IMG/VR virus record: IMGVR_UViG_2877251553_000008
DNA: 52,923 nucleotides
Strand: one strand, 5' to 3'
Source of the DNA: a virus
Taxonomy: Duplodnaviria; Heunggongvirae; Uroviricota; Caudoviricetes
Positions 10,212-47,327 of the stretch are shown here, one piece after another. Both the position numbers and the translations under genes were made by a program. Position 1 is the stretch's first letter; the number at the start of each line of letters is the position of its first letter. The notes beneath the pieces were generated by a model that worked only from the letters and a program-made list of their open reading frames with translations, was not told the origin of the DNA and made no database searches.

Positions 10212-13200
10212 TCAGCTAATCGTGATGCCTGCAGTGGCTTTCTTCATCACCACAACCAGCAAATCGCTGATACTTGCTGTGGGATACCAGTTATTTACCA
10301 GCCATGCTGACACCGAAAACTCCAGTGTCATGTGACCGTGACCGGCAGGCATATCAATAACACCACTGTAAATCAGCGTATTATCCAGCGCGGTACGGTT
10401 ATAAATTTCAGCACCGTTTTTCCGCACTATCAGACGGCATGAGGAGTAAATATCAGTATGCTCTTTCTCATGTTTAGCGCCGCTGAATGCCACCGCCGGA
10501 ATAACAATCTGCCGGTCAAACGGCTGATCGTCATAAACCCTGACGGTAATGGTTCCTGATGGCCACCGCTCCGGTGCACGGGAGTCCCGGGGAAAGCTTT
10601 GCCCACTGTTTTAACGAGATCGCCTTCAATCTGGTTCGCGGACAATTTTCCCAGAACCCGACAGTTCTCGTTAATCGTGACGTTGTTGAGCGTCCCGGAG
10701 TTCGCATTCACGTTACCGCTGATATCGGCATTTTTCGCCGTCAGCCGCCCGTCCGGTGTCAGGGAAAATGCCGGAGGATTACCGCCGCTGGTAATGGTGG
10801 GAGCCGTCAGATATTTCAGGAACACTTCATTCATAAATATCTGATCGCCCTGACCAACAAACATCGGCTTTGTGTTGCCATTCGCAGGATTAATCATCGC
10901 AATCCTGTCTGCCGCCAGCAGCACCTGACTCTGCATTCCTGCTGGCGTATTCTCAATACCGGCATCGATACCCGCAATATAAAGGCGTCCGTCCTGCATC
11001 TGCTGCAGTTTCACGGCCCACATGCTGTTCAGGTTATTATTTGTATCAACCTGAACTTTCTGTATCTGCTGGATTGCCGCACTCTGATTTTCCAGTTTTT
11101 TATTGACGGTCTGCGTGATTTCATTGCTGACATTCGTAATGGACGTCCTGATTTCAGCCAGGTCCGGCGCAAGCTGACCGTTATCAATCTGCGTCCACAG
11201 CTCCTGGGCCAGATGTGTTTTCCCGATTTCTCCTTTGAAGAAATCCAGGTAACCTTCCGCATCATCGCTCGCCCGACCGACAGCCTCCACGAATGCCGAT
11301 TTGCCAACAGTATTCACACTGCGGATATAAAAATAATAATCATGGCCCGGTTTGATATTGATACTGGCAGCTATCCAGTACAGCGCCGAGCCAAGATAGC
11401 GGGCTGCGGTTTCAACCTGCCTGATATCCGCAATCCGCTTTTCCGAGAACCAGAACTCAAACTGTACCGTCGGGTAATAAACGGCAAGATGCGGCGTGGC
11501 GGTTATCTGAAAATAGCCCGGCGTCAGTTCAATGGTGGCGGGTTTTGCTGGCGCGTTAATCCGGAAGGTGGTGGTGGCCGGTTCGCCCTGCTGGCCATAA
11601 CTGTTAATTGCCCTGACTGTCAGGGTGTATTCCCCGAGCGGCAGACCACTGAAACGATGCTCTGTATCCGCAGTGATAGCGGTGGTCACCAGACGGCTGT
11701 CTTCTCCGCTTCCGCTGGTCAGTCGCAGACTGAAGCGCCCCCCTTCACCACCCGCGGCGTGTCCCATTTCGCCTGTGCCAGATACTGGCCGTCAGCTGCG
11801 CTCACCTCCACCGTCAGGTGCTGCACTGCCGGTGGGATGACGCTGTTCAGGGAGCCTGACTGCGGCTCAAAGCGGGCACCGTTATCCACGATGGCTTCTT
11901 TTTCCGGTACGTGCTGCACCGCCGTGATGGCAAAGGTGCCGTCCGTGTTTTCCCGGACGGAGACACAGCGGAACAGGCGACGGCGCAGTGACGGCAGGGA
12001 GAGTCCCCACACCCCGTATGTCTCCACACCATCAGGCAGGGTACTGACCTGTATCCGGTCCGGCGCGGGGTGTGCGGTGATGTCCACACTCACCGGCTTA
12101 CCGCTGCCGTTAATCAGGTTCACCGCCGATGTACCTGTCTCCGGCAGGGTAACCTCACGGTCCAGCGTCAGGGTGCGGGTGGCAGCATCAATGGACAGGA
12201 CACGTCCGCCGGTCATAGTCCCGGCATAGTCGTTATCACAGATTTCAATAATGTCACCCGGTGTGTGACGCAGCCCCTGTGACCCGAGCGTGAAGTCCAC
12301 CGTCTGCGTTTCCAGCAGTCCGGTCTTTATCACCCACAGACCTGCACGGTGAGCCTGACCGCGGCAGGTACAGCCAAACGCATCCATCTTCAGCAGGTTG
12401 CGTCCGTAGCGCAGTATGGCTTCCGGGTCTTCCACCAGTTCCGTGGAGGTCTGCCAGCCGTTCTGCGGGTCGGTGTAATTCACCTCCACCGCCGTGTGCC
12501 GGTCCTTCAGGGCACTGAAGCTGTAGCGGAATCCCACGCCGTTATCATCCACCACCACATCGCTGTTGGTGTACGGCCACACCACATCCGACGGGCGGTC
12601 CTGAACGAACGTCAGCGTCTGACCGTTCCATACCGGCATACAGCGCATCGCAGAGCAGAAATCACTGAGAACGTCCCACGCCTTACGCTGTTGTGCCAGG
12701 TACGCATTAAAGGTCATCCGCGGCTCGGTCCCCCGAAACCATCCGGGACCGTCTGGTCGCAGTACTGCCCGATGGCATACAGCGCCCACTTGTCCACATC
12801 CGCCGCCCCAGACGTTTTCCCATGCCGTAGCGCGGGTGAGTCAGCATGTCCCACAGGCACCAGGCCGGGTTGTTGCTGTATGCCGGTTTCAGACTGCCGT
12901 CCCAGATACCACTGTACGTGCGTTTTTCCGGGTCATAGTTTGACGGCACCTGGATGATGCGACCGCGGATATGGTAGTTCACCGTCATCTGCTGGCCGCC
13001 GAACTGCTCCGCATCCACCTGCAGCCCCACAATGGCCGTGTTCGGGTAGCACTGTTTCACATCGATGATTTCGGTGTATGACGACCACAGCGTCTTATTC
13101 TGCAGCTGGTCCGTGGTGCTGTCCGCCGTCTCCCTGACCATCCGGATGTTAAAGGGCCGGGGAGGCAGATTATCCAGAATCACCGAGGCCAGGAACTGTG

Positions 13201-13681
13201 AGGTGGTCTTGCCGTTAATGGTGACGTCCTTTTCCGTCACCCAGCGGCCATTACGCTGTAACTGAATCAGAATCCGGACAGAGGAAGGATTACGGTCGCC
13301 CTTTGACGTGGTCTGCACCAGTGACTGCACCCCGAAGGTAACCCGCAGGCGGTCAATGTTCGCGGACGTAATGGTGCGCGTCACCGGTTTTGCCTTCGTC
13401 ACTTCCACGCCCAGTCCGGTTTCAGAGCCGGAGGACTCAAAGCCTTCCGGTGGTGTCTGCTCCTGCTCCCCGGCGCGCCAGACCGCCGTCACACCGTGTA
13501 TCACGGGATTGCCGTCCGTGTCCGTCAGTGGGGTTTTGTTCACCAGAATACTCTGCAGTCCCTTCACCGGACCTTCTATCGGTCCCTCACCAATCGCATC
13601 AATCACACTCATCATCTGCGTGGATTTGAGATTATCCTTCGCCTCACGAGGAGTGTGTGCCTTACCGCCACCTTTTCCCAT
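10212..13681 (-). pseudogene. J: tail tip / host-specificity protein J, at least three frameshifts
   Basis: Four consecutive ORF pieces (12707..13681, 11719..12789, 10430..11767, 10212..10493) each match successive parts of lambda J (MGKG..HTPREAKDNLKST...; ...TEPRMTFNAYLAQQRKAWDV...; ...[16 protein letters not shown]...). Confidence 0.85.
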
Positions 13682-13784
13682 ACAGCCTTCCCCTGAATAA
13701 ATTAACCGCCACTTGCCATTCCGTACAGAAGTCGGATATCCTTCGCCCGAAAAGCATGAAACACATTTCTGCCATGCTAAAGAG

Positions 13785-13814
13785 AAACCCCGGTATCAGC
13801 AGATACCGGGGTTT
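13785..13814. other. strong 13-bp perfect stem-loop in the I-J insert
   Basis: AAACCCCGGTATC-agca-GATACCGGGGTTT, T-rich on both sides. Confidence 0.6.
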
Positions 13815-14018: not shown

Positions 14019-14023
14019 ATGTT

Positions 14024-14704: not shown

Positions 14705-15343
14705 TTTTCGGAATACCTCTCCCGTTTACTCAGTTGTTCAGGCAGATGGTGAAGCAGCTCACCGTTGCCGCAGTAAATGGTGGCATGGTTCGGTACCGAA
14801 GCACCAAAGCAGCACAGCAGAATATCGCCCGGCTGTGCAGAGGACAGGGGCACCCGGTAAAAGCCGGTGACCGCCATATTGTCCAGGTACAGGTTCTGGC
14901 CGTTGCGCCACCAGTCATCCTCGCGATGAAAATCCGGCATATCAATTCCCGCCAGATGGTATGCATCCCGGAACAGCGTGTAACAGTCCGTCACCCCGTG
15001 CTCAAAGCGCCGTCCTGTCAGATGTGGCACACAGCGGAATTTATGAATTTCCCCCGGCAGACCAGCCACCAGGGCAGTGCGCTTTTTATCTGCAGCCGCC
15101 GGTCAGCCTCGCTCAGCCAGGGCAGCCCACCGGGATGACTGTGGACCAGTGCCACAATCTCCCCCTGCATCTCTGCCCGCAGCCAGTCTTCCGGTGCGAT
15201 ACGAAAATACGCCTCCGGCTCTGCAGAAATATTCACACAAGGATATACCACTCCCCCTCCGGCGTGCTTATCACGAAGCCGCACGACTCCGCAGGCGCAC
15301 ACCGCCGGGCATGCGCCAGAATCGCTGATTCAGTCTGTGTCAT
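14602..15343 (-). pseudogene. K: tail tip assembly protein K (MPN/JAMM plus NlpC/P60), two frameshifts
   Basis: Three pieces: MTQTESAILAHARRCAPAESCGFV.. / ..HSHPGGLPWLSEADRRLQ.. (JAMM motif) / ..TDCYTLFRDAYHLAG...NHATIYCG..GELLHH (NlpC/P60). Confidence 0.8.
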
Positions 15344-16052: not shown

Positions 16053-16380
16053 CAGTTCACCACCTGTTCAAACTCTGCGCTGAACTCAACACGCAGCATA
16101 CTGACCCGCGACGACCATTTTGCGCAGGTCACCTTTATCTGCCGCCACTCATAAGGCGGCGTCCACAGAAAGGATTTCCAGCCCCGTGCTCAGCCAGAAA
16201 CGACTCAAGCGCCGTGGCCTCCCAACGGGGAACAGAAAGCGTCACGCTGTACGTTTTCAGGTCGGCATTCAGCCCGGCAGGCGCTCGCTGGGAATAGCCA
16301 TCACCAAAGCGCACTTTCCTGACGGAAGGGGCTGAAGCCACATCCATACCGGGTTTCACTTTCCAGCGGAAGGTCTTCAT
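16052..16380 (-). pseudogene. M: tail tip assembly protein M, frameshifted
   Basis: MKTFRWKVKPGMDVASAPSVRKVRFGDGYSQRAPAGLNADLKTYSVTLSV... then frame change at the run CCCC 16182-16185; C-terminus ...WKSFLWTPPYEWRQIKVTCAKW...EQVVN readable in the adjacent frame; stop overlaps the L start (TGATG). Confidence 0.8.
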
Positions 16381-18949
16381 CGTCCACCTCCGGAGAACAG
16401 ACCACCATCGCGCATCTGTGCCTGAATTTCATCACGGGCACCCTTGCGGGCCATGTCATACACTGCCTTCAGCATCTGTGGACCTGGCAGACCATTCGTA
16501 CCGTCGTTCTGAATCACCACGTTGTTGTTCTGCTCAAATCTGATACCCTCTGAACGCCGCATTTGCGCCGGACTTCCGGTGCCACCGACATAACCGCCGG
16601 TGGCATAGCCGCGCATCAGCCGGTAAAGATTTCCCACGCCAATCCGGCTGGTCGCCTCCTTCGTGAAGACAAACTCCCCGCGATGAACAATCCCCGCAGG
16701 TTCATATTTACCCCCCGTCCCCGTAAATCCCCCGGTCGCGAAATGGAAGTTCGCCGCCGCAGCCTGAATGGCTGTACCGCCTGACGCGGATGCGCCGCCA
16801 CCAACAGCCCCGCCAATGGCGCTGCCGATACTCCCGACTATCCCCACCATCGCCTGCTTCAGAAAAATCTCTGTCAGCATGGACAGCACAGAACGGGTGA
16901 AACCACGCCAGTTCTGTTCGCTGCCGGTCAGCATCGCTGCCATATTCTGTACAATACCGTCAAAGGTCTGCGTGGCCGCGTTTTTAACCTGCGAAAAACT
17001 GTCCGTCGCACTTTCCGCCCACTCGCCCCAGCCGGACTTCATCCCGGCCATCCAGCTTCCACGAAGCTGCTCCTCCGCAGACCAGGTGTTCTTCAGTGCA
17101 GATGTGGCCTTCGCCAGCGCAGCCGGATTATCACCGTACACCTCACGAAGGCGCTGCTCTTCCGACTCCCGCTGCGCCTGACGGTCGGTGAGTCCGCGTG
17201 CTTTTGCGCTGATTGCCGCCTGCTTCGCGCTCTGCTGCTGTTCAAACCGCGCCGCCTGCTGTGCCAGCTCATTCAGCCGTTTCTGGTGTTCAATCTTGTC
17301 GCCCAGCTCAGCCAGCTGGCGTTTGTACTCCAGCGTTTCTTTCTCATGGGCCAGCAGGGATTTTTCCTGCTCAGATAACTGCCGTTTCGTGGCGGCCTCT
17401 TTCAGGACCACATACTGATTTTCCGCTTCCCATAAATCCCGGCGCTGCTGGCTGATTTTCTCATTCACACCGCTGTGTTTTTCCAGCGTCCTGAGCTCGG
17501 TTTCAAGCGCCAGCATGGCTGCATGCGCCCGGTCTTCCTGGCGCTCACCGGCAGACACCTTCACACCTGACGGCTTTTTCAGCGTCGATTCATAATCCTT
17601 TTTTGCCGACGCCATCAGCGTGTTGTAATCCGCCTGCAGGATTTTTCCGTCTTTCAGGGCCTTATTCAGCTCTTTCTGACGGGCGGTATATTTATCCAGC
17701 GGCGTCTGCAGGCGCTCATACGCCTTCTGCGCCTCTCCGGTATACTTCAGCTGTGACGCCTCACGCTCAGCCCGGTCCCTTGCCGCCAGTTCACCGGCTT
17801 TTTCCATATCCGACTGCAGCGTGGCCGCTGCCAGACCCAGACGGGCATTTTCCCGGTCATCCCATGCCCCCTGAAGGTTCGCACGAAAAGAGGAGGTCTT
17901 TCCCCGGCGCTGGCTCCGGCTCTGGTACCACTGCCATTTTTTATCCGCCTCATCAAATGCCTTCTGCGCACTGGCGAGCATATCCGCTGAGGATTCAGGA
18001 CGACCGATATCCAGAATGGCATCCCACATCGATTTGAATGCCTTCCCTGTTTTATCCGCCCAGGTCTCCAGTGTTCCCATGTTTTCTTTCAGGCGACGGG
18101 TCTGCTCATCAAAGCCTTTCGTGGCGATATCGTTCGCCGCCTGCAATGCCCCGGCCTCGTCTCCGGAACGCTGCAGCTGTGCAACATACGCAATCTGCTC
18201 TGCCGTCACGTTACGGAACTGGCGCGCCATCGCCATCAGTCCCGACGTCGGGTCAGTGGTCAGCTTCCCGAAGGCTTCAGCGACTTTATCCACCTCCACA
18301 CCGGATGCAGACGCAAAACGCGCGACACTCTGGTTGATGGCATCAAACTGTTCACCACCACGCACACCGGCATTCACCAGGGCTGCCAGTGACTCTCTCG
18401 CCTGGTTAAACGTCAGCCCTGCTGCCTGCCCGGCTCTTGAGAGAGTCAGCATACGATCGGCAGTCAGTCCGGACTGATTACCGGAAAGAACCAGGGTTTT
18501 ATTAAACGCTGAAAGCGTGGAATCTCCCTGGTACCAGGCGTACACCAGCGCACCTGTCGCCACCGCCAGCGAGGTGACCCCGACCATCGGCAGGGTGATC
18601 GCACCGGCAAGCCCCTGAACATGGGGATCATCCCGCCGAAGGAGTCCTTCACCTGACCGCCCTGTTGCAGCAGGATCAGCCAGGGATTCTGACCACCTGC
18701 AAGCTGCGTGGCGATATCCGTAAACTGTGCGGGCAGGGTTCGCATGGCCGCTTTATACTGCCCGACGGAAATCCCGGCTTTTTGTGCAGCCAGCGCCTGG
18801 CGGCTCAGGCCCTGTTCAACAGCACTGGCGGTTTTTCTGGCGTCGGTATCCAGACCTGAAAAATGACGCCTTACCCGGCTCATCTGCTCATCGAAACGGA
18901 CAGCATCCAGACTCAGGTCAATAACAAGATCACCAACCGGCTGGGACAT
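16377..18949 (-). pseudogene. H: tape measure protein H, frameshifted near 18600
   Basis: N-terminal piece MSQPVGDLVIDLSLDAVRFDEQMSRVRRHFSG...GGMIPMFRGL and 736-aa piece MVGVTSLAVATGALVYAWYQG...DGGLFSGGGR match lambda H. Confidence 0.85.
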
Positions 18950-19095
18950 ATCTCACACCTCCCGGAATCCCCGCTGAAGCCATCATTAATGCGGCATCAT
19001 CCACCATGACATCCGCCACATCCGCAGACGATAAAATATCGCGCCCTCCGTCCCACCGAACCGGACGCCTCCGGCAAGTCCTGCCGCTTTCTGCA

Positions 19096-19799
19096 TCAGC
19101 ATTTTGTCCTCATCCGGCCTCTCCACCTGCTCTTCCTCATGCCGGGGACAAGCAGACTGAAATCAGAGGGATGCATATCCGGATCGCAAAAAAACAGGCT
19201 GAGTACAGCGTACGTCAGCCCGGAAAAATGCATATCCAGCTGGGTATCCTGAAAATAATGCGTACGGTAAAAACGGTGCCAGTCGGCATATTCGGTGGAT
19301 GTCATCCCGGCAAGCATGGCGCGCCAGTCGGGTCTCCCCATCTCACGCGCCAGTCTGAGGGCAAAGTTCAGCTCGCCGTCGAAGACTTTCCCGCAGAAAA
19401 ATCATCATCAGTCAGCGTGTTATTTTTCGCCACTTCAGTAATATCAGTATCCGGACGAACAGCTTCGATCATCCCGGACAGGCACAACACCACGTCTTCC
19501 GCCCGGGCAATGGCATCGGCAGGCCAGGTGGTGAGCACTTCCTGCTCTATCTTCATCACGGCCTCATTCATTGACGGTGACTGCGTTTTCTGTGGATGGT
19601 TATGCCACAGGGACATCGCCACCAGAAACGCGCCGGTTCTGACGAGATCTTCCACGCTTACCTGCAGGTTGCCGCAGGATTCTGCCTGTTCTGCACGCCG
19701 TTTCAGGAGGGCAAGATGCTCGATACGCTGCAGCGCAGACAATTCGGAAAGCGTGACAGACACACCGTTATATTCAAATTGTTCTGTTTTCAGAAACAT
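19096..19799 (-). CDS. T: G-T fusion made by programmed -1 ribosomal frameshift
   Basis: Slippery heptamer GGGAAAG on the minus strand at 19386-19392 near the end of G; the -1 frame continues to a stop at 19096 with T-like sequence (...ADWHRFYRTHYFQDTQLDMHFSGLTY...). Confidence 0.7.
19368..19799 (-). CDS. G: tail assembly chaperone G
   Basis: 143-aa ORF MFLKTEQFEYNGVSVTLSELSALQRIEHLALLKRRAEQ... matches lambda G. Confidence 0.9.
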   Translation of the reverse strand: MFLKTEQFEYNGVSVTLSELSALQRIEHLALLKRRAEQAESCGNLQVSVEDLVRTGAFLVAMSLWHNHPQKTQSPSMNEAVMKIEQEVLTTWPADAIARAEDVVLCLSGMIEAVRPDTDITEVAKNNTLTDDDFSAGKSSTAS

Positions 19800-22269: not shown

Positions 22270-22318
22270 ATCCAGCTCCCTGTGAAAAAAACACGGGGCA
22301 TTTCGCCCCGCTCACGGA

Positions 22319-23346
22319 TTATTTCACCTGTACCACCACAAACTCATCCGGATCCGGCAGCACCATCAGCGGCGCGGACTGCGTCATGGTGAATTCACAG
22401 GACGGATCGCCCACGGTCAGCCAGTGTTTCGGGTAACGGGAAGAAGCCACCACTCCTTCAGACAACGCCTGTGCATCCTTAATGGCTCCATAGCAACGAA
22501 TCCCCTCTGCTGCCGTATTCCCCAGCACCAGCGTGCCCTCCGGCAGATAACGTTTTTCGGTACCGTCCTCTGCCACATAAGACGTTTTCGCTACCGCAAT
22601 GACCAGATCGCCGTAATACCCTTGAAGGATACCACTGCGCCCAGATCTTTCACTGCCGTTTCGAGTTGTGAATTTGAACCGCGACGGGTATCCATTTTTT
22701 CGCGGAAAAGCTTAAAGCCATTCAGCAGACGCCAGACGGTACCGTCCATAATGGCAATATTCACAAGACCACTGGCCTGATCACAGAAAAGGTCGATATC
22801 ATATGTCGGGTCGAACGTGTCACGATCCTGTTTTGACCACTCCTTACCGCTACCTTGTATGATGTTATTCTTCGTCGATCGGCCAAAATCGACTTCAATT
22901 TTCTCGAACTGGTCTCCTTCCATCGTATATTTGCCATACAGCACGGCATTCACCGCCTGCATTTCTTCCACCTGCACAATAGCGTGCTCTTCCTGTTTGA
23001 GGTTATCAGTGATGATACGCAGACGACGGTAGGCCGGGTCGTTCAGCTGAGCCGGATCTTCACCGGGAAGGCGCTCAACCGCCTGCTGGTAATTAAATTC
23101 GTGTTTGGGCTTGACGTAGCCCGGACGCAACACGCGGGTTTCACCACCACGATGGCGCAGCACTTTTCCTTCAACGATCGGGGAGACATAGGCCGCCACC
23201 GGCGTTTTTCCGGTAATTTTGTCCAGCATCACCTCTTCGGTGTGGAAATTCACCGTACGGCGGAAAAACAGCTCCAGAAATAGCGCACGGAATTTAACTT
23301 TTTGTTCGGTATAACTGAGTAACTGGCGGGTCGTAAACAATCCCAT
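22319..23346 (-). pseudogene. E: major capsid protein E, frameshifted near 22580
   Basis: 251-aa piece MGLFTTRQLLSYTEQKVKFRALFLELFFRR...RRGSNSQLETAVKDLGA and 85-aa piece ...EGTLVLGNTAAEGIRCYGAIKDAQA...PLMVLPDPDEFVVVQVK match lambda E N- and C-terminal parts. Confidence 0.85.
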
Positions 23347-23787: not shown

Positions 23788-25292
23788 TCATGGCATGGCC
23801 ATGAGCATTTTCACGTCCGCATCACCGTCTGCTGACGTCTGTGACACGCCACCCCGCACCGCTGCCGGTGAATGATTCGCCATGAAATGTTCAAACAGGG
23901 CGGTTGTGGATGCAGAGACCGGTTCTGCCTTACCTGATCCCGCAGCCAGCACAGCCCGGGCGCTCTCCACGGTCATTCCCGGGCAGGCAGCCAGCTGTTC
24001 AGCCTGCGCCTCAGCCCCTTTTGCCTCATCCAGTGCCATGATCTGATCACGGAGTGATGGTCCGGCATTCGCCTGCGGTGAAGCAGCCAGGATCGGGCGG
24101 GCTTTTTCCACCGTCATCTCCGGCATCGCCGCCAGCGTTGCTGCCAGTTGTTCACGACCGTTCGCTTCTTCACACGCCATAATGCGATCGGCTTCACTCT
24201 GCGCGGATGCCACCGGCTGCTGCGGTGCCGCCGCGGCCAGAATCGCCCGGGCCTGTTCAACGCTCATGCCCTGTTGCCCTGCCAGCATCGTGGCAAGCTG
24301 TTCACGTCCTTTCGCTTCCTGGCATGTCAGGATCCCCATCACTCGCTGGTTCTCCTGCACGGCGGCTTCCGTTGCAGTTAATTGCGGCATAGTGCCTCCT
24401 CTGACATTACTGTTCAGCGCCGTGGCCATCACACTGATGGCATCCGACGCATTGATTAATTCATCCGCCAGCCCGGCCTCAATGCCGGACTGACCTTCAA
24501 AAACGGCGGCCTCTGTTCCCGTGACCGCATCCACAGACAACCCGGTATACATCGCCACTTTTTCGGCAAACATCCGGTGCGCCGCATCAATCCGCTGCTG
24601 CATATCCTGGCGAACCTCTGCCGGCAACGCTTCAAACTGATTGCCATCCACCTTGTGCGCCCCGGCATAAATCAGCGTGATATCCACACCGGCCTGCGCC
24701 AGATGACCGGCATAGCTGACATGGCTCATCATCACGCCAATGGAGCCGATACGGGATGTCTGGGTAACCAGCCGTCGGGAGCAGGCCGACGCCAGCAGCA
24801 TGGCTGCAGAACAGGCCGTGTCATTGCACAGTGCCCAGACCGGCTTCTGCTGACGGAGGCGGTAAATCATGTCAGCGCAGTCAAACGCGCCGGCGGCCTG
24901 CCCACCCGGACTGTCAATGTCCAGCAGTATGCCCCGCACCTGGCTATCTGCCATTGCCTGCTGAAGACAGGCGACAATGCCGTCATAGCCAGTCATTCCG
25001 GAAAATGGCCGCATCCCCCCAGCCGGTGCACCAGCGTGCCGGTCACCGGCAGTACCGCAATACCGTTCACCACCCGGTAAACACGGGCCGGTCGTTTACC
25101 TCCGGCCATGTACTCGTCCGTTTCAGCCAGCATTCCGGGAGCATCAAGCTGTACCTGCTGTTGTGGTACCGAAAGACTTGCTGCGCCCATCTCGCGCCCG
25201 AGCGCGCAAAAGAAAACCCGCGCATAGGCGGGCTCCAGAAGCAGCGGTTCATTGAATGCTGCGGCAATAATGTGTGAAAGATTACGTCTCAC
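23788..25292 (-). pseudogene. C: capsid assembly protease C (S49/ClpP-like; Nu3 scaffold in frame), frameshifted near 25000
   Basis: N-terminal piece ...AAFNEPLLLEPAYARVFFCAL... and 408-aa piece ...GILLDIDSPGGQAAGAFDCADMIYRLR...RLVTQTSRIGSIGVM match lambda C. Confidence 0.85.
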
Positions 25293-30925: not shown

Positions 30926-30958
30926 AAAACCCGCTTGCAGCCAACAAACGGGTTTTTT
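30926..30958. terminator. hairpin with T-rich flanks between R and Rz (possible bidirectional terminator)
   Basis: AAAACCCG-cttgcagccaacaaa-CGGGTTTTTT on the plus strand; the reverse complement is likewise followed by TTTTGTGTTT. Confidence 0.35.
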
Positions 30959-33205: not shown

Positions 33206-33420
33206 TTACTCTCCCCGTACAGCCTTACGACGGTCCTCTCTGATTTTGAAATACAGGTTAGTCAGATATGTCAGCAGCCCAAACAGCAGACTCCCAGCAC
33301 GCCTATTGCCGCCCACTGAGACGGGGAAACCCTGTCCAGCAACTGCAGGAACCAGTAGCCCGTTCCCACCGCTGACGTGGTGTATGACACACCTGTTGTG
33401 ATTTTTTCCATCTGGTACAT
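33206..33420 (-). pseudogene. S: S21-like pinholin/antiholin with dual-start motif, frameshifted at 33293-33295
   Basis: [43 protein letters not shown] then frame change; remaining [28 protein letters not shown] readable in the adjacent frame; Met1 and Met4 give holin/antiholin starts. Confidence 0.8.
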
Positions 33421-33570: not shown

Positions 33571-35465
33571 TTATGATGATGCCGGTGCATTTATCTCCAG
33601 CACCAGACTTTCTATCTCAACGCCATACGCTGCATTTTTGGTAATATCCGTCAGCGTCAGTGCATTTAGTCCCACTGCCAGACTGTCTTTTATGGCCTGG
33701 AATGCCGGGCCAGCCACTCCATTCAGTTTCGGAGTAACCGTGGCACTGCCGGCGGTGAACACCAGCTCCAGCGTCTGCCAGTCGTTACTGTAATTCCCGA
33801 ACTCGCCCAACTTTGTGTTTCCGGCTTTCTTGTGATGCATCAGATTCCGTTTGCCGTCTGTGGTCTGGGTGAAGAACGACATCAGGAACGGGTTACCAGT
33901 CCCGGTCATCGCCACGACGTCAGGTAACGCTACATCGGTATACAGATAAATTCCCAGACCGAACTGATTGTTGGTCAGTGCGCCTGACAGTCGAAACTTA
34001 CAGCTCAGTCTGCCACCCCGTGTCAGCAGGGAGACTGCGTCATCCACCGGGCGCGTCAGGGACCAGGCTTTATTGCTCTGCTTGGCGATCTTAAATACAC
34101 CACCCGACAACTGAATTCCGCCGTCCTTAATGGTCCAGCCCTGCGCAGCAGCCTCTCCGGCTGTCGGCAGCAGGGAGATTGTGCGAACGGACGTATCTGC
34201 AGACGGACCCGATGGCGTGTCGCCGCCGGGCGAGGGTTTGATTTCCGGTGCCTTACCACTGATGAAGGCTGAGGTGCGCCCGGCTGCGTTCAGAATAGCG
34301 GTTGCCATACGATCGGGAATAATGCCACGACGCGCCCATGAGCTGAAATTTGTCGGGCGATTTGATGATACCCAGTTTTTGTTCGTTCGGGATGCCGAAC
34401 CGTAATAACCAGACCCGACAATATCAGGATCTTCTGACGGGTTGTTTGTCGGTGTATTAACTCCGCTACCATCGGTCATAAAGGGAACAAAATAAATCTG
34501 CTGGGATTCTTTACCTTTATATGCACCATATACCACTTCATATTGCGTACCGTGTTCTTGTTTCCACGCGTATGTCGTGTCGCCACAAATCCAGGGGACT
34601 GTTGCCGGACTTCCACCGTGACACTGCGCCGCCAGCCCGGCAAGGTCAGCACGGAACTGCTGTACCATTGCAAGAAATGCTGCTGGCTGCTGGGCGTAAC
34701 TGGCATTCGTCATATCGAATTCCCCCTGCATCCAGCATATCGCCAGCAAAACGTTTTTCGGGTTTTTCTGCAATGCTGCCTTCGTGCGGAAAAGCAGATC
34801 CTGATATAACGGCTTACCCACTCCCCAGCGAGCCGAATCCTGACTGGCCCCCGTGGACTCGCTGAATGTCCCCTCCGTGCCCTGGGTGAATGCCGAACCA
34901 CCACGACAGCATGGTACCAGCAGGATCCCGCGTTATTAGGGATATACGGAAGCAGTTTTTTGGCAATATGTAAGCCCTGTCCGACACAGCCGTACTGCCC
35001 TTTGCTCAGGTCAGCCCGGGGATGGTTAATCGTACTCATATCCTGAACATCATGCAGACAATGGTCAGCAGGAATGATGTCGTTAAATACGCATACTTCA
35101 CCACCGGGAGTCACTGTGTTACGACGGGCCAGTTGCTTAATGCGCGGATGGGGCGCATCGTATGAATCCGGAAGCGGAAGCCCTTCACCGTAAGCCATGG
35201 CATTGGACTGCCCGGCCAGGGCAACAACAAATTAATACTCCGGGTTGCTGGTGGTGCTGATAACTGCGCCTTCTCCATCCGACGGCTTCACCACCACAGG
35301 TGTGGTGACATCACCTTCCGCCGCAATGGCCTGCATCAGGGTATAAGGCGTGATGGCCACCGGACTGCCAAATGGCTGCCACCCCTCCTTCAGTTTTTGT
35401 GTCAGTCGCTCCGCAAGGTCTGACGGCGACGCCGCCCTGACCACGTCATAGTGTTTAAATGCCAT
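33571..35465 (-). pseudogene. nanS-p: NanS-p-type sialate O-acetylesterase (DUF1737 plus SGNH esterase), two frameshifts
   Basis: Pieces MAFKHYDVVRAASPSDLAERLTQKLKEGWQPFGSPVAITPYTLMQAIAAEGD.. / ..NAMAYGEGLPLPDSYDAPHPRIKQLARRNT.. / ..MGKPLYQDLLFRTKAALQKNPKNVLLAICWMQGEFD...; typical position between stx/tRNAs and S in Stx phages. Confidence 0.75.
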
Positions 35466-35687: not shown

Positions 35688-35689
35688 GT

Positions 35690-35717: not shown

Positions 35718-35965
35718 TGGAGAGTGGCGCTATGTGCCATTGCATGGTGCCGGGTGCCTCCCGGTGAGTTCAGTATCAGCACCTGAACCCGCACAGAAAG
35801 GATAAGGGTCGGTGACAAAACACCAGTTGCTGATTGCCCTCCGCACAGGGGATTCACCATGCCAGTTTCTTTTAACAAACTCCCCGCAAACCAGACAACA
35901 GTCAACCGCCTGAATTGTGAGACATTTAAAAAAAGCCCGCAAAAGCGAGCCAGGGAAAATAAGTG

Positions 35966-37536: not shown

Positions 37537-37662
37537 TTAACTGGCAGCGTTCGCGTGAAAGGTAAGTATTCTGCGCAATCTCCCGACTGTCGCCGGTTCG
37601 GTGACGCTTAATTCATTAAACACCACTCTGGCGGTTTCTGTCATATCCTGCTGTTTCAGCAT
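37537..37662 (-). CDS. hypothetical small protein (41 aa from internal ATG)
   Basis: MLKQQDMTETARVVFNELSVTEPATVGRLRRILTFHANAAS preceded by a purine-rich RBS; no homologue recalled. Confidence 0.25.
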   Translation of the reverse strand: MLKQQDMTETARVVFNELSVTEPATVGRLRRILTFHANAAS

Positions 37663-38195
37663 GTCTTTTTCCCTTTTCCGGTTAACGTGACACACCAATA
37701 ACTCTTGTCGAAAAAGCCAGCAAGCTGAAAGACAGGTATTCACCGCCACCAGCGCGTTTACTGTACTGACGCGATTTCAGTCATAAAAAACCCGCCAGGC
37801 GGCAGGTTTAAGCTGTATGACGGAGTGACCAATCTTAACAGATTAAGATGGTTTTTGTTATAACACAAATCATTTCCTCGGTATCTTTATATCCCTTATG
37901 TTTCAATCGCCATAGATACCATCAATGAAAGTCGCTTAAAAAACTCTGTAGCAGCTTTGTCTAACGTTGAATAAGTTCTTAGCTCTCCACGCCCGGGACC
38001 AGTCACAACCCACGGACGTCTTTTAGGTGTTCTGGCTCCCTCCGAAATCACAACACCTGATAGACTGACATCAATTGTTATCTCCGTTCTTGTTTCATCC
38101 TCATTAGACTGGCCCCCTGAATCTCCAGACAACCAGTATCACTTAAATAAGTGATAGTCTTAATACTAGTTTTTAGACTAGTCATTGGAGTACAG

Positions 38196-38561
38196 ATGAT
38201 TGATGTCTTAGGGCCGGAGAAACGCAGACGGCGTACCACACAGGAAAAGATCGCAATTGTTCAGCAGAGCTTTGAACCGGGGATGACGGTCTCCCTCGTT
38301 GCCCGGCAACATGGTGTAGCAGCCAGCCAGTTATTTCTCTGGCGTAAGCAATACCAGGAAGGAAGTCTTACTGCTGTGGCCGCCGGAGAACAGGTTGTTC
38401 CTGCCTCTGAACTTGCTGCCGCCATGAAGCAGATTAAAGAACTCCAGCGCCTGCTCGGCAAGAAAACGATGGAAAATGAACTCCTCAAAGAAGCCGTTGA
38501 ATATGGACGGGCAAAAAAGTGGATAGCGCACGCGCCCTTATTGCCCGGGGATGGGGAGTAA
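38196..38561 (+). CDS. insC: IS2 InsC (orfA)
   Basis: [56 protein letters not shown]... Confidence 0.95.
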
Positions 38562-39424
38562 GCTTAGTCAGCCGTTGTCTCCGGGTGTCGCGTGCGCAGT
38601 TGCACGTCATTCTCAGACGAACCGATGACTGGATGGATGGCCGCCGCAGTCGTCACACTGATGATACGGATGTGCTTCTCCGTATACACCATGTTATCGG
38701 AGAGCTGCCCACGTATGGTTATCGTCGGGTATGGGCGCTGCTTCGCAGACAGGCAGAACTTGATGGTATGCCTGCGATCAATGCCAAACGTGTTTACCGG
38801 ATCATGCGCCAGAATGCGCTGTTGCTTGAGCGAAAACCTGCTGTACCACCATCGAAACGGGCACATACAGGCAGAGTGGCCGTGAAAGAAAGCAATCAGC
38901 GATGGTGCTCTGACGGGTTCGAGTTCTGCTGTGATAACGGAGAGAGACTGCGTGTCACGTTCGCGCTGGACTGCTGTGATCGTGAGGCACTGCACTGGGC
39001 GGTGACTACCGGCGGCTTCAACAGTGAAACAGTACAGGACGTCATGCTGGGAGCGGTGGAACGCCGCTTCGGCAACGATCTTCCGTCGTCTCCAGTGGAG
39101 TGGCTGACGGATAATGGTTCATGCTACCGGGCTAATGAAACACGCCAGTTCGCCCGGATGTTGGGACTTGAACCGAAGAACACGGCGGTGCGGAGTCCGG
39201 AGAGTAACGGAATAGCAGAGAGCTTCGTGAAAACGATAAAGCGTGACTACATCAGTATCATGCCCAAACCAGACGGGTTAACGGCAGCAAAGAACCTTGC
39301 AGAGGCGTTCGAGCATTATAACGAATGGCATCCGCATAGTGCGCTGGGTTATCGCTCGCCACGGGAATATCTGCGGCAGCGGGCTTGTAATGGGTTAAGT
39401 GATAACAGATGTCTGGAAATATAG
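38519..39424 (+). CDS. insD: IS2 InsD (orfB transposase)
   Basis: 301-aa [33 protein letters not shown]...[23 protein letters not shown]... Confidence 0.95.
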
Positions 39425-39447
39425 GGGCAAATCCAGTAACTGTTCAT

Positions 39448-39839
39448 TTATCTTGAATCATTTTCGTGATTCATATAGCAATCCATTTCTAAAGATACCT
39501 CGAGCATTGCCAGACACCCTTCAACAAACCCTTCAGCTTTCTGCAATCTAATAACAACTTGATTAAGCGATATCCCCATTTTCGCCCCTAACGCTCGTAA
39601 TGTGATCCCATATACATAATACATTTCCAGTAATTGGTATTGATATGGTTCCTTTTTCTTGAGAACTGCCATAACTGAACTAATGATAAGACCATCATCA
39701 TCGCAACATTGCGGTCGATATTTTACTTTTGAGGGATGAGGCCTTTAAACCCCGCAGCAATTGGCGACCAACTAACATTCTCATGATTATTTGCCGCCCA
39801 TGCTCCCCAGCGTTCGAGAACCATCTGAATATCACGCAT
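39448..39839 (-). pseudogene. Q: late-gene antiterminator Q (Q82/QuuD family), frameshifted at 39733-39735
   Basis: ATG at 39839 with GGAGAAAG RBS encodes [35 protein letters not shown], then frame change, then ..[17 protein letters not shown]...LQKAEGFVEGCLAMLEVSLEMD; matches the recalled DLP12 QuuD layout. Confidence 0.65.
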
Positions 39840-41155: not shown

Positions 41156-42551
41156 AATAAACGCTCCGTTTTACTGCCCGACATGCGGTTATTGCTGTAT
41201 CTGCGCGGATTGCCCGGCGTCATGGGTGTGGAAAGAACCCGGGCACTCTCCTGGTCCACAGGCAGAAAATGTCCGTTATGAAAACGCCGGTAAATGGTCC
41301 CGAGTGTGCCATTACGCTGTTTCGTGATGTTGATTTCTGCTATGCCTCTGGCCTGTGTATCCGGGTTATACACCTCATCCCTGTAAAGCATCAGAATGAT
41401 GTCGGCATCAGCCTCTATTTCCCCGGAGTTTTTCAGGTCTGAGTTCATGGGACGTTTATTGGGTCTGGATTCCACGCCTCGGGAGAGCTGGCTCAGAGCA
41501 ATCAGCGGGAAACCGCCGGATTTTGCCAGGCTTTTAAGTCCCTTTGAGATTTCCCCCACAGCAAGGTCGTGACGCCCCGTGCTGCGGGTTTTAATCAGAC
41601 CGAGGTAATCGACCACCACCAGCGCCGTTTCCGGATGCTTCATCCGGTGGTACCTCGTGGTTGCACATATCTCATCAATTGTTAGATTTGCCTGGTCCAC
41701 CATCCAGATATTACGCCCCGTCATTCGTCCCACGCCCTGCGAGAAACGAGCCCAGTCTTCATCTTCAAAACGGGCAACAGACTTAAGACGGGATACCGGC
41801 ATTCCACCGGCAGTAGACACCATACGTTCACCAATCTGGATGTTCGCCATCTCCATGGTGAACAGAAGCACGCCATGCCCCTGCTCAGTCACCTTGTCGA
41901 TGATGTCCAGCGCCAGTTCGGTTTTCCCCATCGAAGGACGAGCCGCAATGAATACCAGGTCGCCTGGCTCCATCCCCCTGTTTTTGCGTCCAGTTCATTA
42001 ATACCAGTCATCAGTGTTCTGGATTTCTCCAGTCCCTGATTCCGGCATTCAACACGGCCCACCACTTCCGGAAGGACATCATCAATGTGAACCGGCTGAA
42101 TGACGCCCTTTCCGGTCGACAGTGAGGCCATCATGTTCTGCGCATCCTTCAGGGCATCCTCGGCTGCTTCACAGGTATACGCATCACGTAAATTCTGTAA
42201 TGCTTCAGTCAGTGTTTTTTCTGCATCACGCAGTGCGGCATTGCGCCGCAACGCTGCGACATAGTGCTCCAGTGAAGACTTCACCCAGGTTTTGCGTCCG
42301 GTGTCGGTAATCACCGGGGCAAGTTCCGGCATCTCATTGCACAGCAGTACGGGGTCAATGACGCCGGATATGCGAGCCTGTCTGCAAATCCCCGCGTAAA
42401 TATCCCGGTACTGACGCACAAAAAATACATCCGCCGGAAGTGTGGCCAGAATATCCATCACTTCCGGATCGGCCCCACGCAGAAAAAACGCACCGATGAC
42501 AGCGCCTTCCAGGTCATCGTTACGCCATGCCGGGGTGTTCTGGCTGGTCAT
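41152..42551 (-). pseudogene. replicative DNA helicase (DnaB family), frameshifted near 41975
   Basis: 220-aa N-terminal piece and 273-aa piece with Walker A (IAARPSMGKTELAL) and RecA-like DnaB C-terminal motifs. Confidence 0.8.
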
Positions 42552-43435: not shown

Positions 43436-43436
43436 C

Positions 43437-44261: not shown

Positions 44262-44481
44262 AACACACCTCCCAGGCGTTTAAACATTTTTCCAGACAGA
44301 AATACCGCCAGAGGGTAACTGATGGTGTAGCTACGCCCTGTAGTTCGCACACGACTTTCTGGCTTTCAGCGTTGACTAGGCAAACCCGCAGAACGTGACC
44401 GTTGCTGGTGGCGAACCACTGCCCCACACGGGGGCAACGGTTGTATCGGTGATACAGGGAATTAACGATGTGGCGGATCAT
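44188..44481 (-). CDS. hypothetical protein (97 aa), overlaps the O-like start
   Basis: ORF MIRHIVNSLYHRYNRCPRVGQWFATSNGHVLRVCL...; no homologue recalled; the 74-nt overlap with the O-like gene makes boundaries uncertain. Confidence 0.3.
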   Translation of the reverse strand: MIRHIVNSLYHRYNRCPRVGQWFATSNGHVLRVCLVNAESQKVVCELQGVATPSVTLWRYFCLEKCLNAWEVCYEHGADGESDENSCGKSVAKTGSD

Positions 44482-46336: not shown

Positions 46337-46560
46337 TGTTGGTCTCCTGTGGGCTTGTCATCTTCTGTATTCGCTAGACTTGGGTGTGTATATGGAATGC
46401 TCGGATCCAGATGACAAAGAATGGCAACATCCTCCGGAACACCTCGCGTTTTCCACTTTCCAACACCTTGACTGCCACGAGGCCTTCCTTTCTTTGGGAA
46501 CCTGCGACCAATAGCGGCATTGGTTTTAAATTGAATTTTTAATATTTCATAAAGGGTCAT
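46333..46560 (-). CDS. cro: Cro-like small regulator (first gene of the rightward early operon)
   Basis: 75-aa ORF transcribed divergently from cI across a 111-bp operator region; assigned by position, sequence similarity to known Cro weak. Confidence 0.4.
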   Translation of the reverse strand: MTLYEILKIQFKTNAAIGRRFPKKGRPRGSQGVGKWKTRGVPEDVAILCHLDPSIPYTHPSLANTEDDKPTGDQQ

Positions 46561-46671
46561 TCTTTAGTCTCACACCAGATACTTTGTTATCCAACGATGT
46601 TAACCGCAAGAATCCAAAGTATCAAGATATTCTGTTACTTTAGTATCAACAGCCATGAGAGGAGAAGAAAA
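46561..46671. promoter_or_regulatory. cI/cro divergent promoter-operator region (OR-like)
   Basis: Repeated half-site core GTATCA/TGATAC (GATACT 46579-46584; AGTATCAA 46618-46625 and 46642-46649); RBS GAGAGGAG before the cI ATG. Confidence 0.5.
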
Positions 46672-47327
46672 ATGAAGTCTTTAGGTGAACGTCTCATCAA
46701 CGCACGGCAAAAAGCTGGGTTAACACAAGATGCGTTGGCTAAAAAAGCTGGGATCACCAGAGTTGCAATCAGTAAAGCCGAGCAAGGCCTTACAAAAAGT
46801 TTCAACGGTGACACCCTTTTTAAAGTTGCAGCTGCACTGCGGTGTTCACCGCAGTGGCTTCAGAACGGAGATGAAAAAGATAAGCATTGGGAAAATAATG
46901 TTAAGAGCTGCCCACAGAGAGACACAGCACACTCTTACCCTGTAATTAACTGGGTTCAGGCAGGATTATTCGCAACTTCTGGTGATGACTACAACATGTA
47001 TGATCAGGATAATTGGAGGCATTCTGTAAAATACGCTGGTGAGAGGGGTTCTGGCTGGAAGTGCACGGAGACTCAATGACTTCGCCCGTAGGAATAACAT
47101 TTCCTGAAGGAATGTCGATCCTTGTCAACCCAGATAAAGAAGTTTTTTCAGGGTGTTACGTCATCGCCAGAAAAAAATCCACCAATGAAGCAACATTCAA
47201 AAAATATATTTCTGACATGGGAAAGGCGTTTCTAAAGCCCCTTAATCCACAATATCCAATCATAGAAATGGACAATGATTGCGAAATAGTAGGTGTTGTG
47301 GTTGATGCCAGGTGGGATATTTTCTGA
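46672..47327 (+). pseudogene. cI: CI-type repressor (HTH plus S24 LexA-like peptidase), frameshifted at G-run 47045-47048
   Basis: N-terminal MKSLGERLINARQKAGLTQDALAKKAGITRVAISKAEQG (HTH) ...KYAGE; C-terminal domain with catalytic G-D-S-M (VHGDSMTSP) and KKY; adding one G to GGGG restores ...AGERGFWLEVHGDSM. Confidence 0.8.

What the first reader, a model, noticed from the sequence alone, without database searches (positions are those of the whole stretch)
10212..47327. At least 17 single-base frameshifts, preferentially in G/C runs: likely sequencing errors, not decay
Broken genes: J (3), K (2), M, H, E, C, A, nanS-p (2), S, Rz/Rz1, Q, helicase, cI, IS66 orfA. All seven junctions I reconstructed are a missing base, five of them inside G/C runs of 3-5 nt (cI 47045-47048, Rz 30397-30400, M 16182-16185, S 33293-33295, Q 39733-39735); the H and IS66 orfA sites are 1-2-nt runs. 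No premature stops or deletions accompany them, and a normally identical IS orfA is also hit. This pattern fits homopolymer undercalling better than real pseudogenisation, and it decides whether the prophage is functional.
Basis: partly seen in the sequence, partly recalled or inferred. Interest (0 to 1): 0.6.

Follow-up and report, generated by a model that had tools for sequence, protein, structure and literature searches.

The report
Sequencing-error frameshifts in a Shigella prophage
The many broken genes in this Shigella dysenteriae prophage are almost all artefacts of one public long-read genome assembly that dropped a single base from runs of G or C, so they show poor sequence quality and are not evidence of gene decay.

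Summary
The window lacks one base at 28 sites, 26 of them inside 10212-47327. Twenty-three sites break 18 genes.

All 28 are deletions and 27 lie in G/C runs. The chance that a run is shortened rises with its true length: 0.1% for 3 bases, 5% for 4, 28% for 5, 50% for 6 and 100% for 7. None of 582 A/T runs of 4 or more bases is affected.

The window is base-for-base identical to GenBank CP026825.1, most likely Shigella dysenteriae ATCC 12021 from a PacBio-only project.

- **Relatives:** The same prophage in other S. dysenteriae assemblies and short-read contigs has the longer run at every site. One draft differs over 21.3 kb by 0 substitutions but 5 such deletions.
- **Rest of the assembly:** The defect also hits the chromosomal genes osmF and cmoB, a second prophage and the plasmid.
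- **Sister assemblies:** These have their own, statistically independent sets of such deletions.
- **Repair test:** Adding one base per site restores every gene.

Verdict: this is homopolymer under-calling, a known artefact. The lesions that are real are one nanS-p stop codon and several IS insertions. Three sites (IS66 orfA, M, cI) are individually less certain.

The parts
3380..3380 (+). IS66 orfA: T where siblings have TT. This is the only site not in a G/C run. CP026834 shares the short allele, so it may be real.
10589..10592 (-). J (tail tip): G4 in the window, G5 in relatives. Single-base omission.
11738..11743 (-). J: C6 in the window, C7 in relatives.
12730..12734 (-). J: C5 in the window, C6 in relatives.
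12806..12809 (-). J: C4 in the window, C5 in relatives.
15051..15055 (-). K: C5 in the window, C6 in S. dysenteriae siblings.
15241..15242 (-). K: G2 in the window, G3 in relatives.
16182..16185 (-). M: C4 in the window, C5 in the 99.8%-identical contigs L012 and L014. The short allele also occurs on two unrelated contigs, so this site is less certain on its own.
18612..18615 (-). H (tape measure): C4 in the window, C5 in relatives.
19052..19054 (-). T (tail assembly, the G-T frameshift product): C3 in the window, C4 in relatives.
19144..19147 (-). T: G4 in the window, G5 in relatives.
22295..22298 (.). Intergenic, between E and FI: one arm of a GGGGGC...GCCCCC hairpin reads G4 instead of G5.
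22306..22309 (.). Intergenic: the other arm of the same hairpin reads C4 instead of C5.
22619..22621 (-). E (major capsid): C3 in the window, C4 in relatives.
25015..25020 (-). C (S49 head protease/scaffold): C6 in the window, C7 in relatives.
27586..27590 (-). A (large terminase): C5 in the window, C6 in relatives.
30397..30400 (-). Rz: G4 in the window, G5 in relatives. The site may also lie in the embedded Rz1, which was not tested.
30930..30932 (.). Intergenic, between R and Rz: C3 in the window, C4 in relatives.
33293..33295 (-). S (holin): C3 in the window, C4 in relatives.
34927..34929 (-). nanS-p esterase: C3 in the window, C4 in relatives.
35837..35839 (.). Intergenic, between nanS-p and the tRNA cluster: C3 in the window, C4 in relatives.
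35848..35851 (.). Intergenic: G4 in the window, G5 in relatives.
37582..37584 (-). 65-aa hypothetical gene: C3 in the window, C4 in relatives.
39733..39735 (-). Q antiterminator: G3 in the window, G4 in relatives.
41974..41978 (-). DnaB-type helicase: C5 in the window, C6 in relatives.
44336..44338 (-). 74-aa hypothetical gene: C3 in the window, C4 in relatives.
47045..47048 (+). cI/LexA-family repressor: G4 in the window, G5 in all close relatives. The same short allele recurs on 9 other contigs, mostly error-prone or of unknown sequencing platform.
50601..50603 (+). 170-aa hypothetical gene, split here into 87 + 82 aa: C3 in the window, C4 in relatives.
35232..35234 (-). Real lesion, not an error: an in-frame TAA in nanS-p. 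It is present in every S. dysenteriae sibling, including the clean assemblies, and absent from the E. coli relatives.
38105..39437 (+). Real lesion: an IS2 copy replaces the first ~134 codons of the WYL-domain gene. The siblings share it.
47684..48523 (-). Real lesion: the transposase of an IS3-family element. Its insertion truncates the HTH gene downstream of cI after codon 82. The siblings share it.

Best explanation
The frameshifts are consensus-calling errors of the deposited assembly. They are not mutations in the bacterium.

The window is part of GenBank CP026825.1. This is most likely the chromosome of Shigella dysenteriae ATCC 12021, from a series of historical Shigella strains sequenced with PacBio only.

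In that generation of single-molecule sequencing, adjacent identical bases are often merged into one pulse, C and G especially. When coverage is modest, the consensus caller leaves a homopolymer one base short. The chance of this rises steeply with run length. Each omission inside a gene appears as a -1 frameshift.

What is shown here:
- the identity of the source record;
- the pure-deletion, G/C-run, length-dependent signature;
- its absence from independent assemblies of the same DNA;
- its presence elsewhere in the same assembly and in sister assemblies;
- full restoration of all genes by adding one base per site.

What is inferred: the sequencing platform, the physical cause (pulse merging and low coverage), and the strain name of the chromosome record.
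For: 1. **Source.** Window 15282-36874 and 41637-52923 are 100% identical, with no gaps, to CP026825.1. The next accession, CP026826.1, is an S. dysenteriae ATCC 12021 plasmid. The accession block CP026774-CP026878 is cited to Kim et al. [quoted passage not shown]

2. **Signature.** 28 of 28 events are 1-base deletions and 27 of 28 are in G/C runs. The rate by true run length is 1/832 (3 bases), 10/207 (4), 10/36 (5), 4/8 (6) and 2/2 (7). No A/T run of 3 or more bases is hit (0 of 1500).

3. **Indels versus substitutions.**
   - Against CP026807 over the whole 52.9 kb there are 27 indels, all deletions in the window. There are only 13 substitutions outside one recombination patch.
   - Against draft AKNG01000044 over 21.3 kb there are 0 substitutions and 5 G/C-run deletions.

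4. **Independent assemblies** carry the longer run at every site they cover.
   - Intact S. dysenteriae-specific products sit on 49-114 contigs each.
   - The truncated H, A and Rz products sit on the source contig only. Truncated C and E sit on the source plus CP026823.

5. **Assembly-wide.**
   - osmF in the chromosomal flank is hit.
   - A second locus has sixteen 1-base G/C-run deletions, one of them in cmoB.
   - The plasmid has a C5 where its relative has C6.
   - The chromosomal flank is hit at the prophage's per-run rate (1 observed, 2.8 expected). The plasmid is hit 16-fold less often (1 observed, 15.7 expected; p = 2e-6), as coverage-dependent error would predict.

6. **Sister assembly CP026823** has an almost identical length profile: 2, 14, 10, 4 and 2 errors for run lengths 3 to 7. 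It shares 11 sites with the window, against 7.2 expected for independent errors given run length and 0.77 if sites were random.

7. **Repair test.** Inserting one base per site makes every gene a single full-length, stop-free alignment.

8. **No selection signature.** Five of the 28 sites are intergenic, about what the non-coding fraction predicts.

9. **Published precedent.** The same signature is reported for PacBio assemblies as omission of a C or G in runs of 3 or more, giving frame shifts (PMC4487206). In another case 243 under-called homopolymers were confirmed by Sanger sequencing (PMC4687164).
Against: - No raw reads were available, so no site has been verified directly for this strain.
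- The platform is inferred from an accession block and a paper title. The paper itself could not be read.
- Three sites fit less well:
  - IS66 orfA (3380) is a T, not in a G/C run, and CP026834 shares the short allele.
  - The short M allele occurs on two unrelated contigs with other haplotypes.
  - The short cI allele occurs on nine other contigs, including six Logan assemblies of unknown sequencing platform.
- Sharing with CP026823 at 4-base runs is somewhat above expectation (3 observed, 0.7 expected). This implies additional site-specific susceptibility, or a little shared ancestry.
- Shigella genomes do carry many genuine pseudogenes, so decay is plausible a priori.
Confidence: 0.95

Rival explanations
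1. Genuine pseudogenisation. The prophage of this strain is truly decaying, and each frameshift is a fixed mutation that inactivates the gene.
For: - Shigella lineages are known for massive gene decay and IS expansion (general knowledge).
- This prophage does carry real lesions shared with its relatives: a nanS-p stop codon and IS2, IS1, IS3-family and IS66 insertions.
- CP026823 shares 11 of the short alleles.
Against: - The private lesions are exclusively -1 events in G/C runs. No private nonsense mutation, larger indel or insertion was found.
- There are 0 substitutions against 5 deletions over 21.3 kb relative to AKNG01.
- Intergenic runs, the chromosomal genes osmF and cmoB, a second prophage and the plasmid are hit in the same way.
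- The allele sharing does not track relatedness. It tracks run length instead.
- The intact alleles are found on 49-114 other contigs.
Confidence: 0.02
2. Real slipped-strand mutagenesis. A mismatch-repair-deficient or otherwise mutator lineage accumulated homopolymer indels, or the sites are phase-variable tracts.
For: - Homopolymer indel rates do rise with run length in living cells (established knowledge of replication slippage).
- The cI and M runs show the same short allele in several unrelated assemblies.
Against: - Slippage produces insertions as well as deletions and also affects A/T runs. Here 28 of 28 events are deletions, and 0 of 582 A/T runs of 4 or more bases are hit, including 22 runs of 7-8 bases.
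- A mutator would also raise the number of base substitutions, yet there are none in 21.3 kb.
- At about 0.15-0.5 events per kb, a 4.7-Mb chromosome would carry many hundreds of frameshifts, which is not compatible with viability (inference).
- The plasmid is spared 16-fold.
- Runs of 3-5 bases are too short for classical phase variation.
Confidence: 0.01
3. A mixture. Nearly all sites are errors, but one or a few are genuine mutations that happen to look the same. IS66 orfA at 3380 is the most likely, followed by M at 16182 or cI at 47045.
For: - The orfA site is a T, not a G/C run, and is shared with CP026834, which shares no other unambiguous short allele with the window. The one other call, at 34927, lies next to further indels in the diverged nanS-p stretch and is unreliable.
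- The short M allele occurs on two other haplotypes.
- The short cI allele occurs on 10 contigs. Two Logan contigs from different projects share both it and an A7-to-A6 change.
Against: - For M and cI, the closest sequences to this window all carry the longer run. These are L012 and L014 at 99.8% identity for M, and AKNG01 with 0 mismatches plus seven other assemblies for cI.
- The other assemblies that carry the short cI allele show further homopolymer deletions nearby, so they look error-prone themselves.
- The short alleles are on 3 (M) and 10 (cI) contigs, against at least 1000 contigs for the intact products.
Confidence: 0.2

Closest known systems
Homopolymer under-calling in PacBio RS-era, long-read-only bacterial assemblies (e.g. 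Streptomyces leeuwenhoekii C34, PMC4487206; Clostridium autoethanogenum DSM 10061, PMC4687164)
   Same: - The discrepancies are single-base omissions only, located in homopolymer runs.
[quoted passage not shown]
- They produce apparent frameshifts and false pseudogenes.
- Short-read or Sanger data always show the longer run.
   Different: - The density here is high: about 0.5 per kb in the window, against 0.04% of bases in S. leeuwenhoekii and about 0.06 per kb in C. autoethanogenum.
- In the low-GC C. autoethanogenum, A/T runs were also hit. Here no A/T run of 3 or more bases is hit.
- The platform of the present record is inferred, not read from the record.
Genuine gene decay in Shigella (IS expansion plus point pseudogenes)
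   Same: The same organism group. The window does contain real decay of this type: IS1, IS2, IS3-family and IS66 insertions and a nanS-p nonsense codon, all shared by descent with sibling strains.
   Different: Real decay is shared among relatives and is of mixed type. The 28 deletions are of one type only, and outside the window they recur mostly in error-prone sister assemblies.
Slipped-strand mispairing, phase-variable homopolymer tracts and mismatch-repair mutator spectra
   Same: The events are at homopolymers, and the probability rises with tract length.
   Different: - Only deletions are seen, and only in G/C runs.
- The tracts are mostly 4-6 bases long.
- There are no accompanying substitutions.
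- The plasmid is spared.
- Independent assemblies of the same DNA lack them.
Programmed frameshifts that are normal in this kind of locus (lambda G-T tail chaperone; IS2/IS3 orfA-orfB)
   Same: They also make a gene appear as two overlapping reading frames. The window contains both a G/T pair and IS2/IS3-family elements.
   Different: These are conserved in all relatives and need no missing base. None of the 28 sites is of this kind. The two T sites lie inside T, not at the G-T slippery site.

Membership tests
Long-read homopolymer under-calling artefact | All discrepancies against trusted sequence are single-base omissions (no insertions, no larger events) | tested here: met
   27 of 27 indels against CP026807 outside the mosaic patch are -1 in the window, and the M site is -1 against L012 and L014. 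Binomial p = 7e-9.
Long-read homopolymer under-calling artefact | Errors sit in homopolymer runs, and the probability rises with run length | tested here: met
   Shortened G/C runs by true length: 1/832 (3 bases), 10/207 (4), 10/36 (5), 4/8 (6), 2/2 (7).
Long-read homopolymer under-calling artefact | Preference for C/G runs of 3 or more bases (as reported in PMC4487206) | tested here: met
   27 of 28 sites are in G/C runs. 0 of 582 A/T runs of 4 or more bases are hit; Fisher p = 1e-14. Precedent.
Long-read homopolymer under-calling artefact | Independent assemblies of the same DNA, especially short-read ones, show the longer run | tested here: met
   CP026807, CP045784, CP026834, AKNG01, MINT01, Logan ERR5984632, QXIE01, QXIC01, ACAWDF01 and MEGAHIT contig L065 carry the longer run at every site they cover. 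The one clear exception is CP026834 at the IS66 orfA site, 3380. The sequencing platform of each was not verifiable.
Long-read homopolymer under-calling artefact | The defect is spread over the whole assembly, including core genes and other replicons | tested here: met
   osmF, cmoB and a second prophage and the plasmid are all hit. Only about 13 kb of core chromosome could be examined.
Long-read homopolymer under-calling artefact | The assembly was made from long reads without short-read polishing | tested here: inconclusive
   The accession lies in a block attributed to a 'PacBio sequencing' paper, and the neighbouring record is an ATCC Shigella strain. The paper is not held.
Long-read homopolymer under-calling artefact | Raw reads or Sanger sequencing of the same strain show the longer run | not testable with these tools
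   No read data are accessible.
Genuine pseudogenisation / prophage decay | Lesions of mixed type (nonsense, indels of various sizes, IS insertions) accumulate together with substitutions | tested here: not met
   The lesions private to this assembly are only -1 events in G/C runs. There are 0 substitutions against 5 deletions in 21.3 kb relative to AKNG01.
Genuine pseudogenisation / prophage decay | Lesions are inherited by the closest relatives | tested here: not met
   Not met for the 28 deletions. Met only for the nanS-p TAA and the IS insertions.
Slipped-strand mutation / mutator / phase variation | Both gains and losses of repeat units occur, in A/T as well as G/C tracts | tested here: not met
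   There are no insertions, and no A/T run of 3 or more bases is affected.

The most novel reading that the evidence does not exclude
A few of the sites may be real, recurrent slippage hot spots in lambdoid prophages rather than errors. The candidates are the G5 run in the cI repressor gene and the G5 run in tail gene M. Their one-base-shorter alleles turn up in several unrelated public assemblies. If real, prophages could switch the repressor or tail assembly off by a one-base contraction.
Probability: 0.05. Interest if true: 0.35.

Novelty: not a real feature. Interest (0 to 1): 0.08.

Why it matters
The finding has no biological novelty, but it has practical consequences.

- **The record is unreliable for gene-integrity questions.** CP026825.1 carries roughly 0.15-0.5 spurious frameshifts per kb, and at least CP026823, CP026805, CP026872 and PTES01 from the same accession block show the same defect. 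By extrapolation that means several hundred false pseudogenes per genome.
- **Downstream analyses would be misled.** Pseudogene counts, prophage intactness calls, pan-genome analyses and protein databases built on these records are affected. The truncated products are already in public protein collections.
- **For this prophage,** all head, tail, lysis, replication, regulatory and integration genes are intact once corrected. Whether it is functional depends on the real IS insertions, not on the frameshifts.

Tried and rejected
- **Complete E. coli RefSeq genomes.** No near-identical record; the best matches are about 96% identical. The source turned out to be a Shigella record. At 96% identity some extra indels appeared (9400, 21543, 29733, 35935, 30097). 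Siblings share these, so I dropped them as real lineage differences.
- **UPEC957C as a reference.** It has its own annotated frameshifts, in Z and FII, so a single reference was not trustworthy.
- **Overall homopolymer spectrum of the window against references.** Not visibly depleted, so this crude test is uninformative. Only the aligned, per-run comparison shows the effect.
- **Repeat-driven polishing failure.** I considered that errors pile up in prophages because reads map ambiguously to repeated phage DNA. I rejected this: the chromosomal flank has the same per-run rate once its G/C-run content is counted.
- **Reading the source paper, or finding the accession or strain in the literature.** Not held, or no hits.
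- **A re-sequenced chromosome of the same strain.** The plasmid of S. dysenteriae NCDC 599-52 is nearly identical to the source plasmid, but its chromosome did not come up in any look-up.

Full report
**What is in the window.** The window is a lambdoid prophage. Its late genes (Nu1 to J, lom, tail fibre) lie on the minus strand. The repressor, early-left genes, xis and int lie on the plus strand, and the integrase ends at 52923. IS1 and IS66 copies lie at 2.1-5.6 kb, an IS1 fragment at about 32 kb, IS2 at 38105-39437 and an IS3-family element at about 47.7-48.9 kb. Three tRNA genes at 35966-36215 are intact.

**Checking the observation.** I ran tblastn with proteins taken from annotated E. coli relatives. 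It shows frame switches in J (4), K (2), M, H, T (2), E, C, A, Rz, S, nanS-p, a 65-aa gene, Q, the DnaB-type helicase, a 74-aa gene and cI. DNA alignment to four E. coli relatives gave the first clear pattern. Almost every isolated indel is a base missing from the window where the relative has a G or C run one base longer.

**Finding the source.** No complete E. coli genome is closer than about 96%. An exact-protein look-up with the portal protein returned GenBank CP026825.1 (GCA_002949915.1). It is 100.000% identical to window 15282-36874, with no gaps. A second look-up confirmed identity for 41637-52923. The next accession, CP026826.1, is 'Shigella dysenteriae strain ATCC 12021 plasmid'. Accessions CP026774 to CP026878 are attributed in PMC7819885 to Kim et al. 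[quoted passage not shown] I could not read that paper. The platform and the strain name of the chromosome are therefore inferences.

**The same prophage elsewhere.** The look-ups also returned the orthologous prophage in other S. dysenteriae assemblies:
- CP026807 (strain 204/96), CP045784 (CFSAN029786, a different project), CP026834 (ATCC 49347), CP026823, CP026805 and CP026840;
- the drafts AKNG01, PSST01, PSSQ01, MINT01, QXIE01, QXIC01 and ACAWDF01;
- a Logan short-read assembly.

Against CP026807 the whole 52.9-kb window has 152 mismatches. Of these, 139 fall in one recombination patch at 14-17 kb and only 13 fall elsewhere. Outside the patch there are 27 indels, and every one is a single base missing from the window. 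The M site lies inside the patch. It is resolved by two contigs that are 99.8% identical there and carry C5 where the window has C4.

The total is 28 sites. The other two are IS66 orfA at 3380 and a 170-aa gene at 50601-50603. Every independent assembly has the longer run at every site it covers. The exceptions are sister assemblies of the same accession block. A MEGAHIT metagenome contig that encodes the window's exact L protein also has the extra base at both K sites and at the M site.

**The signature.** All 28 events are deletions, and 27 of 28 are in G/C runs. The number of shortened runs by true length is:

| True G/C run length | Runs | Shortened |
|---|---|---|
| 3 | 832 | 1 |
| 4 | 207 | 10 |
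| 5 | 36 | 10 |
| 6 | 8 | 4 |
| 7 | 2 | 2 |

Not one A/T run of 3 or more bases is affected (0 of 1500), including 22 runs of 7-8 bases. The binomial p for direction is 7e-9, and the Fisher p for G/C against A/T is 1e-14.

**Indels without substitutions.** Draft AKNG01000044 differs from the source over 21.3 kb by zero substitutions and six 1-base indels. Five are G/C-run deletions in the source: four in the prophage and one in the chromosomal gene osmF. No known mutational process gives five frameshifts and no substitutions.

**Assembly-wide, not prophage-specific.**
- A second locus of CP026825.1 holds another prophage next to cmoA, cmoB and yecN. It has sixteen 1-base G/C-run deletions in 21 kb against CP026807, one of them in the chromosomal tRNA-modification gene cmoB.
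- After normalising for G/C-run content, the chromosomal flank is hit at the same rate as the prophage (1 observed, 2.8 expected).
- A 25-kb stretch of the plasmid has one error, again C5 for C6, where 15.7 would be expected (p = 2e-6). That fits an error rate that depends on coverage or replicon copy number. It does not fit a cellular mutational process.

**Sister assemblies.** CP026823 has its own 21 private G/C-run deletions in this region and shares 11 of the window's. Its length profile (2, 14, 10, 4 and 2 errors for lengths 3 to 7) is nearly the same as the window's. The overlap of 11 sites compares with 7.2 expected if the two error sets are independent given run length, and with 0.77 if sites were random. 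But the sharing is what systematic, length-dependent error predicts. It involves both C7 runs, half of the C6 runs and progressively fewer of the shorter ones.

**Census of products.**
- The truncated H, A and Rz products exist on the source contig only.
- Truncated C and E exist on two contigs, the source and CP026823.
- The corresponding intact, S. dysenteriae-specific proteins are on 49-114 contigs each.

**Repair test.** Adding one base at each of the 28 sites turns every affected gene into a single full-length alignment with no stop codons. The one residue is an in-frame TAA in nanS-p at 35232-35234. It is present in all S. dysenteriae siblings, including the clean assemblies, and absent from the E. 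coli relatives. It is therefore a real lineage-specific nonsense codon.

**Precedent.** Omission of a C or G in runs of three or more, giving frame shifts that Illumina data correct, is described for a PacBio assembly of Streptomyces leeuwenhoekii (PMC4487206). In a PacBio RS II finished genome of Clostridium autoethanogenum, 243 under-called homopolymers were confirmed by Sanger sequencing (PMC4687164).

**Caveats.** Three sites are individually less secure.
- **IS66 orfA (3380).** The missing base is a T outside any G/C run, and CP026834 shares the short allele. CP026834 shares no other unambiguous short allele with the window; the one other call, at 34927, is unreliable. This site may be a real mutation of that IS copy.
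- **M.** The short allele is also on two unrelated contigs with different haplotypes.
- **cI.** The short allele is on nine other contigs: an NCTC-type record, two more records of the same accession family, and six Logan assemblies whose platform I could not determine. Several of these show further homopolymer deletions nearby.

For both M and cI, the sequences closest to this window have the longer run. The intact products are on at least 1000 contigs, against 3 and 10 for the truncated ones.

**Verdict.** Its interpretation, homopolymer under-calling rather than decay, is supported with high confidence. The feature is an artefact of the deposited assembly. Its only value is as a quality warning for this record and its sister records. 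Whether the prophage is functional depends on the real IS insertions and cannot be settled here.

Noticed in passing
window 14000-16450: A recombination patch covering the end of I, then K, L, M and the start of H. It holds 139 of the 152 mismatches to the S. dysenteriae sibling CP026807. Within 15974-20425 the window instead matches E. coli-type contigs (MINT01000643, Logan ERR5984632) at 99.8%.
   Followed up: partly
window 35232-35234 (minus strand): A real in-frame TAA splits nanS-p into a 77-aa DUF1737 part and a 542-aa esterase part. It is present in all S. dysenteriae siblings and absent from the E. coli relatives.
   Followed up: yes
window 38105-39437; 47684-~48900; 31979-32482; 2118-5572: Real IS insertions shared with sibling strains:
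- IS2 replaces the N-terminal two thirds of a WYL-domain gene.
- An IS3-family element truncates the HTH gene downstream of cI after codon 82.
- An IS1 fragment lies between the DUF1327 gene and R.
- IS1 plus IS66 lie beyond the tail-fibre gene.

These insertions, not the frameshifts, bear on whether the prophage is functional.
   Followed up: partly
window 43359-43380: An in-frame 21-bp copy-number difference of a direct repeat (TCTGCCCGTAACTCATCCATT) in the DnaC-like ATP-binding gene gives 292 aa instead of 299. It is polymorphic among siblings: CP026840, CP026805 and PSST01 have the extra copy, while CP026807, CP026823 and AKNG01 do not.
   Followed up: partly
window 47045-47048 and 16182-16185; loci L051, L053-L063: The one-base-shorter cI allele recurs on 9 other public contigs, and the shorter M allele on 2 contigs of different haplotype. 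Either the same runs are error hot spots for several platforms, or they are real slippage hot spots. The platform of the Logan runs is unknown.
   Followed up: partly
loci L008, L018, L034, L042 (CP026823); L021, L043 (CP026805); L055 (CP026872); L056 (PTES01): Sister assemblies from the same accession family carry their own private sets of G/C-run single-base deletions. CP026823, for example, has 21 private ones in this 53-kb region. The quality problem therefore affects several public Shigella 'complete genomes'.
   Followed up: partly
L049 (CP026826.1 60001-85000) vs L050 (CP119451.1): The source's invasion plasmid is almost identical to pINV of S. dysenteriae NCDC 599-52: 3 mismatches, all in IS600 copies, and one C5-for-C6 deletion in 25 kb. 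It shows 16-fold fewer homopolymer errors than the chromosome. NCDC 599-52 may be the same or a very close strain, and its chromosome would be the ideal comparator.
   Followed up: partly
L001 (NZ_CM149646.1) 14455-15395, corresponding to window 21278-21612: The E. coli reference UPEC957C has its own annotated 'frameshifted' Z and FII genes. The window is the longer, intact sequence there. Assembly errors of this kind are thus not confined to the Shigella records.
   Followed up: no
window 50094: This is the only indel against draft AKNG01000044 in which the window is longer (A7 against A6). It is probably an error or a real difference in that draft.
   Followed up: no
window 22295-22309: Both arms of a GGGGGC-ATTTC-GCCCCC hairpin between E and FI (terminator-like) each lose one base in the window, so the stem stays symmetrical but is one pair shorter.
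   Followed up: no
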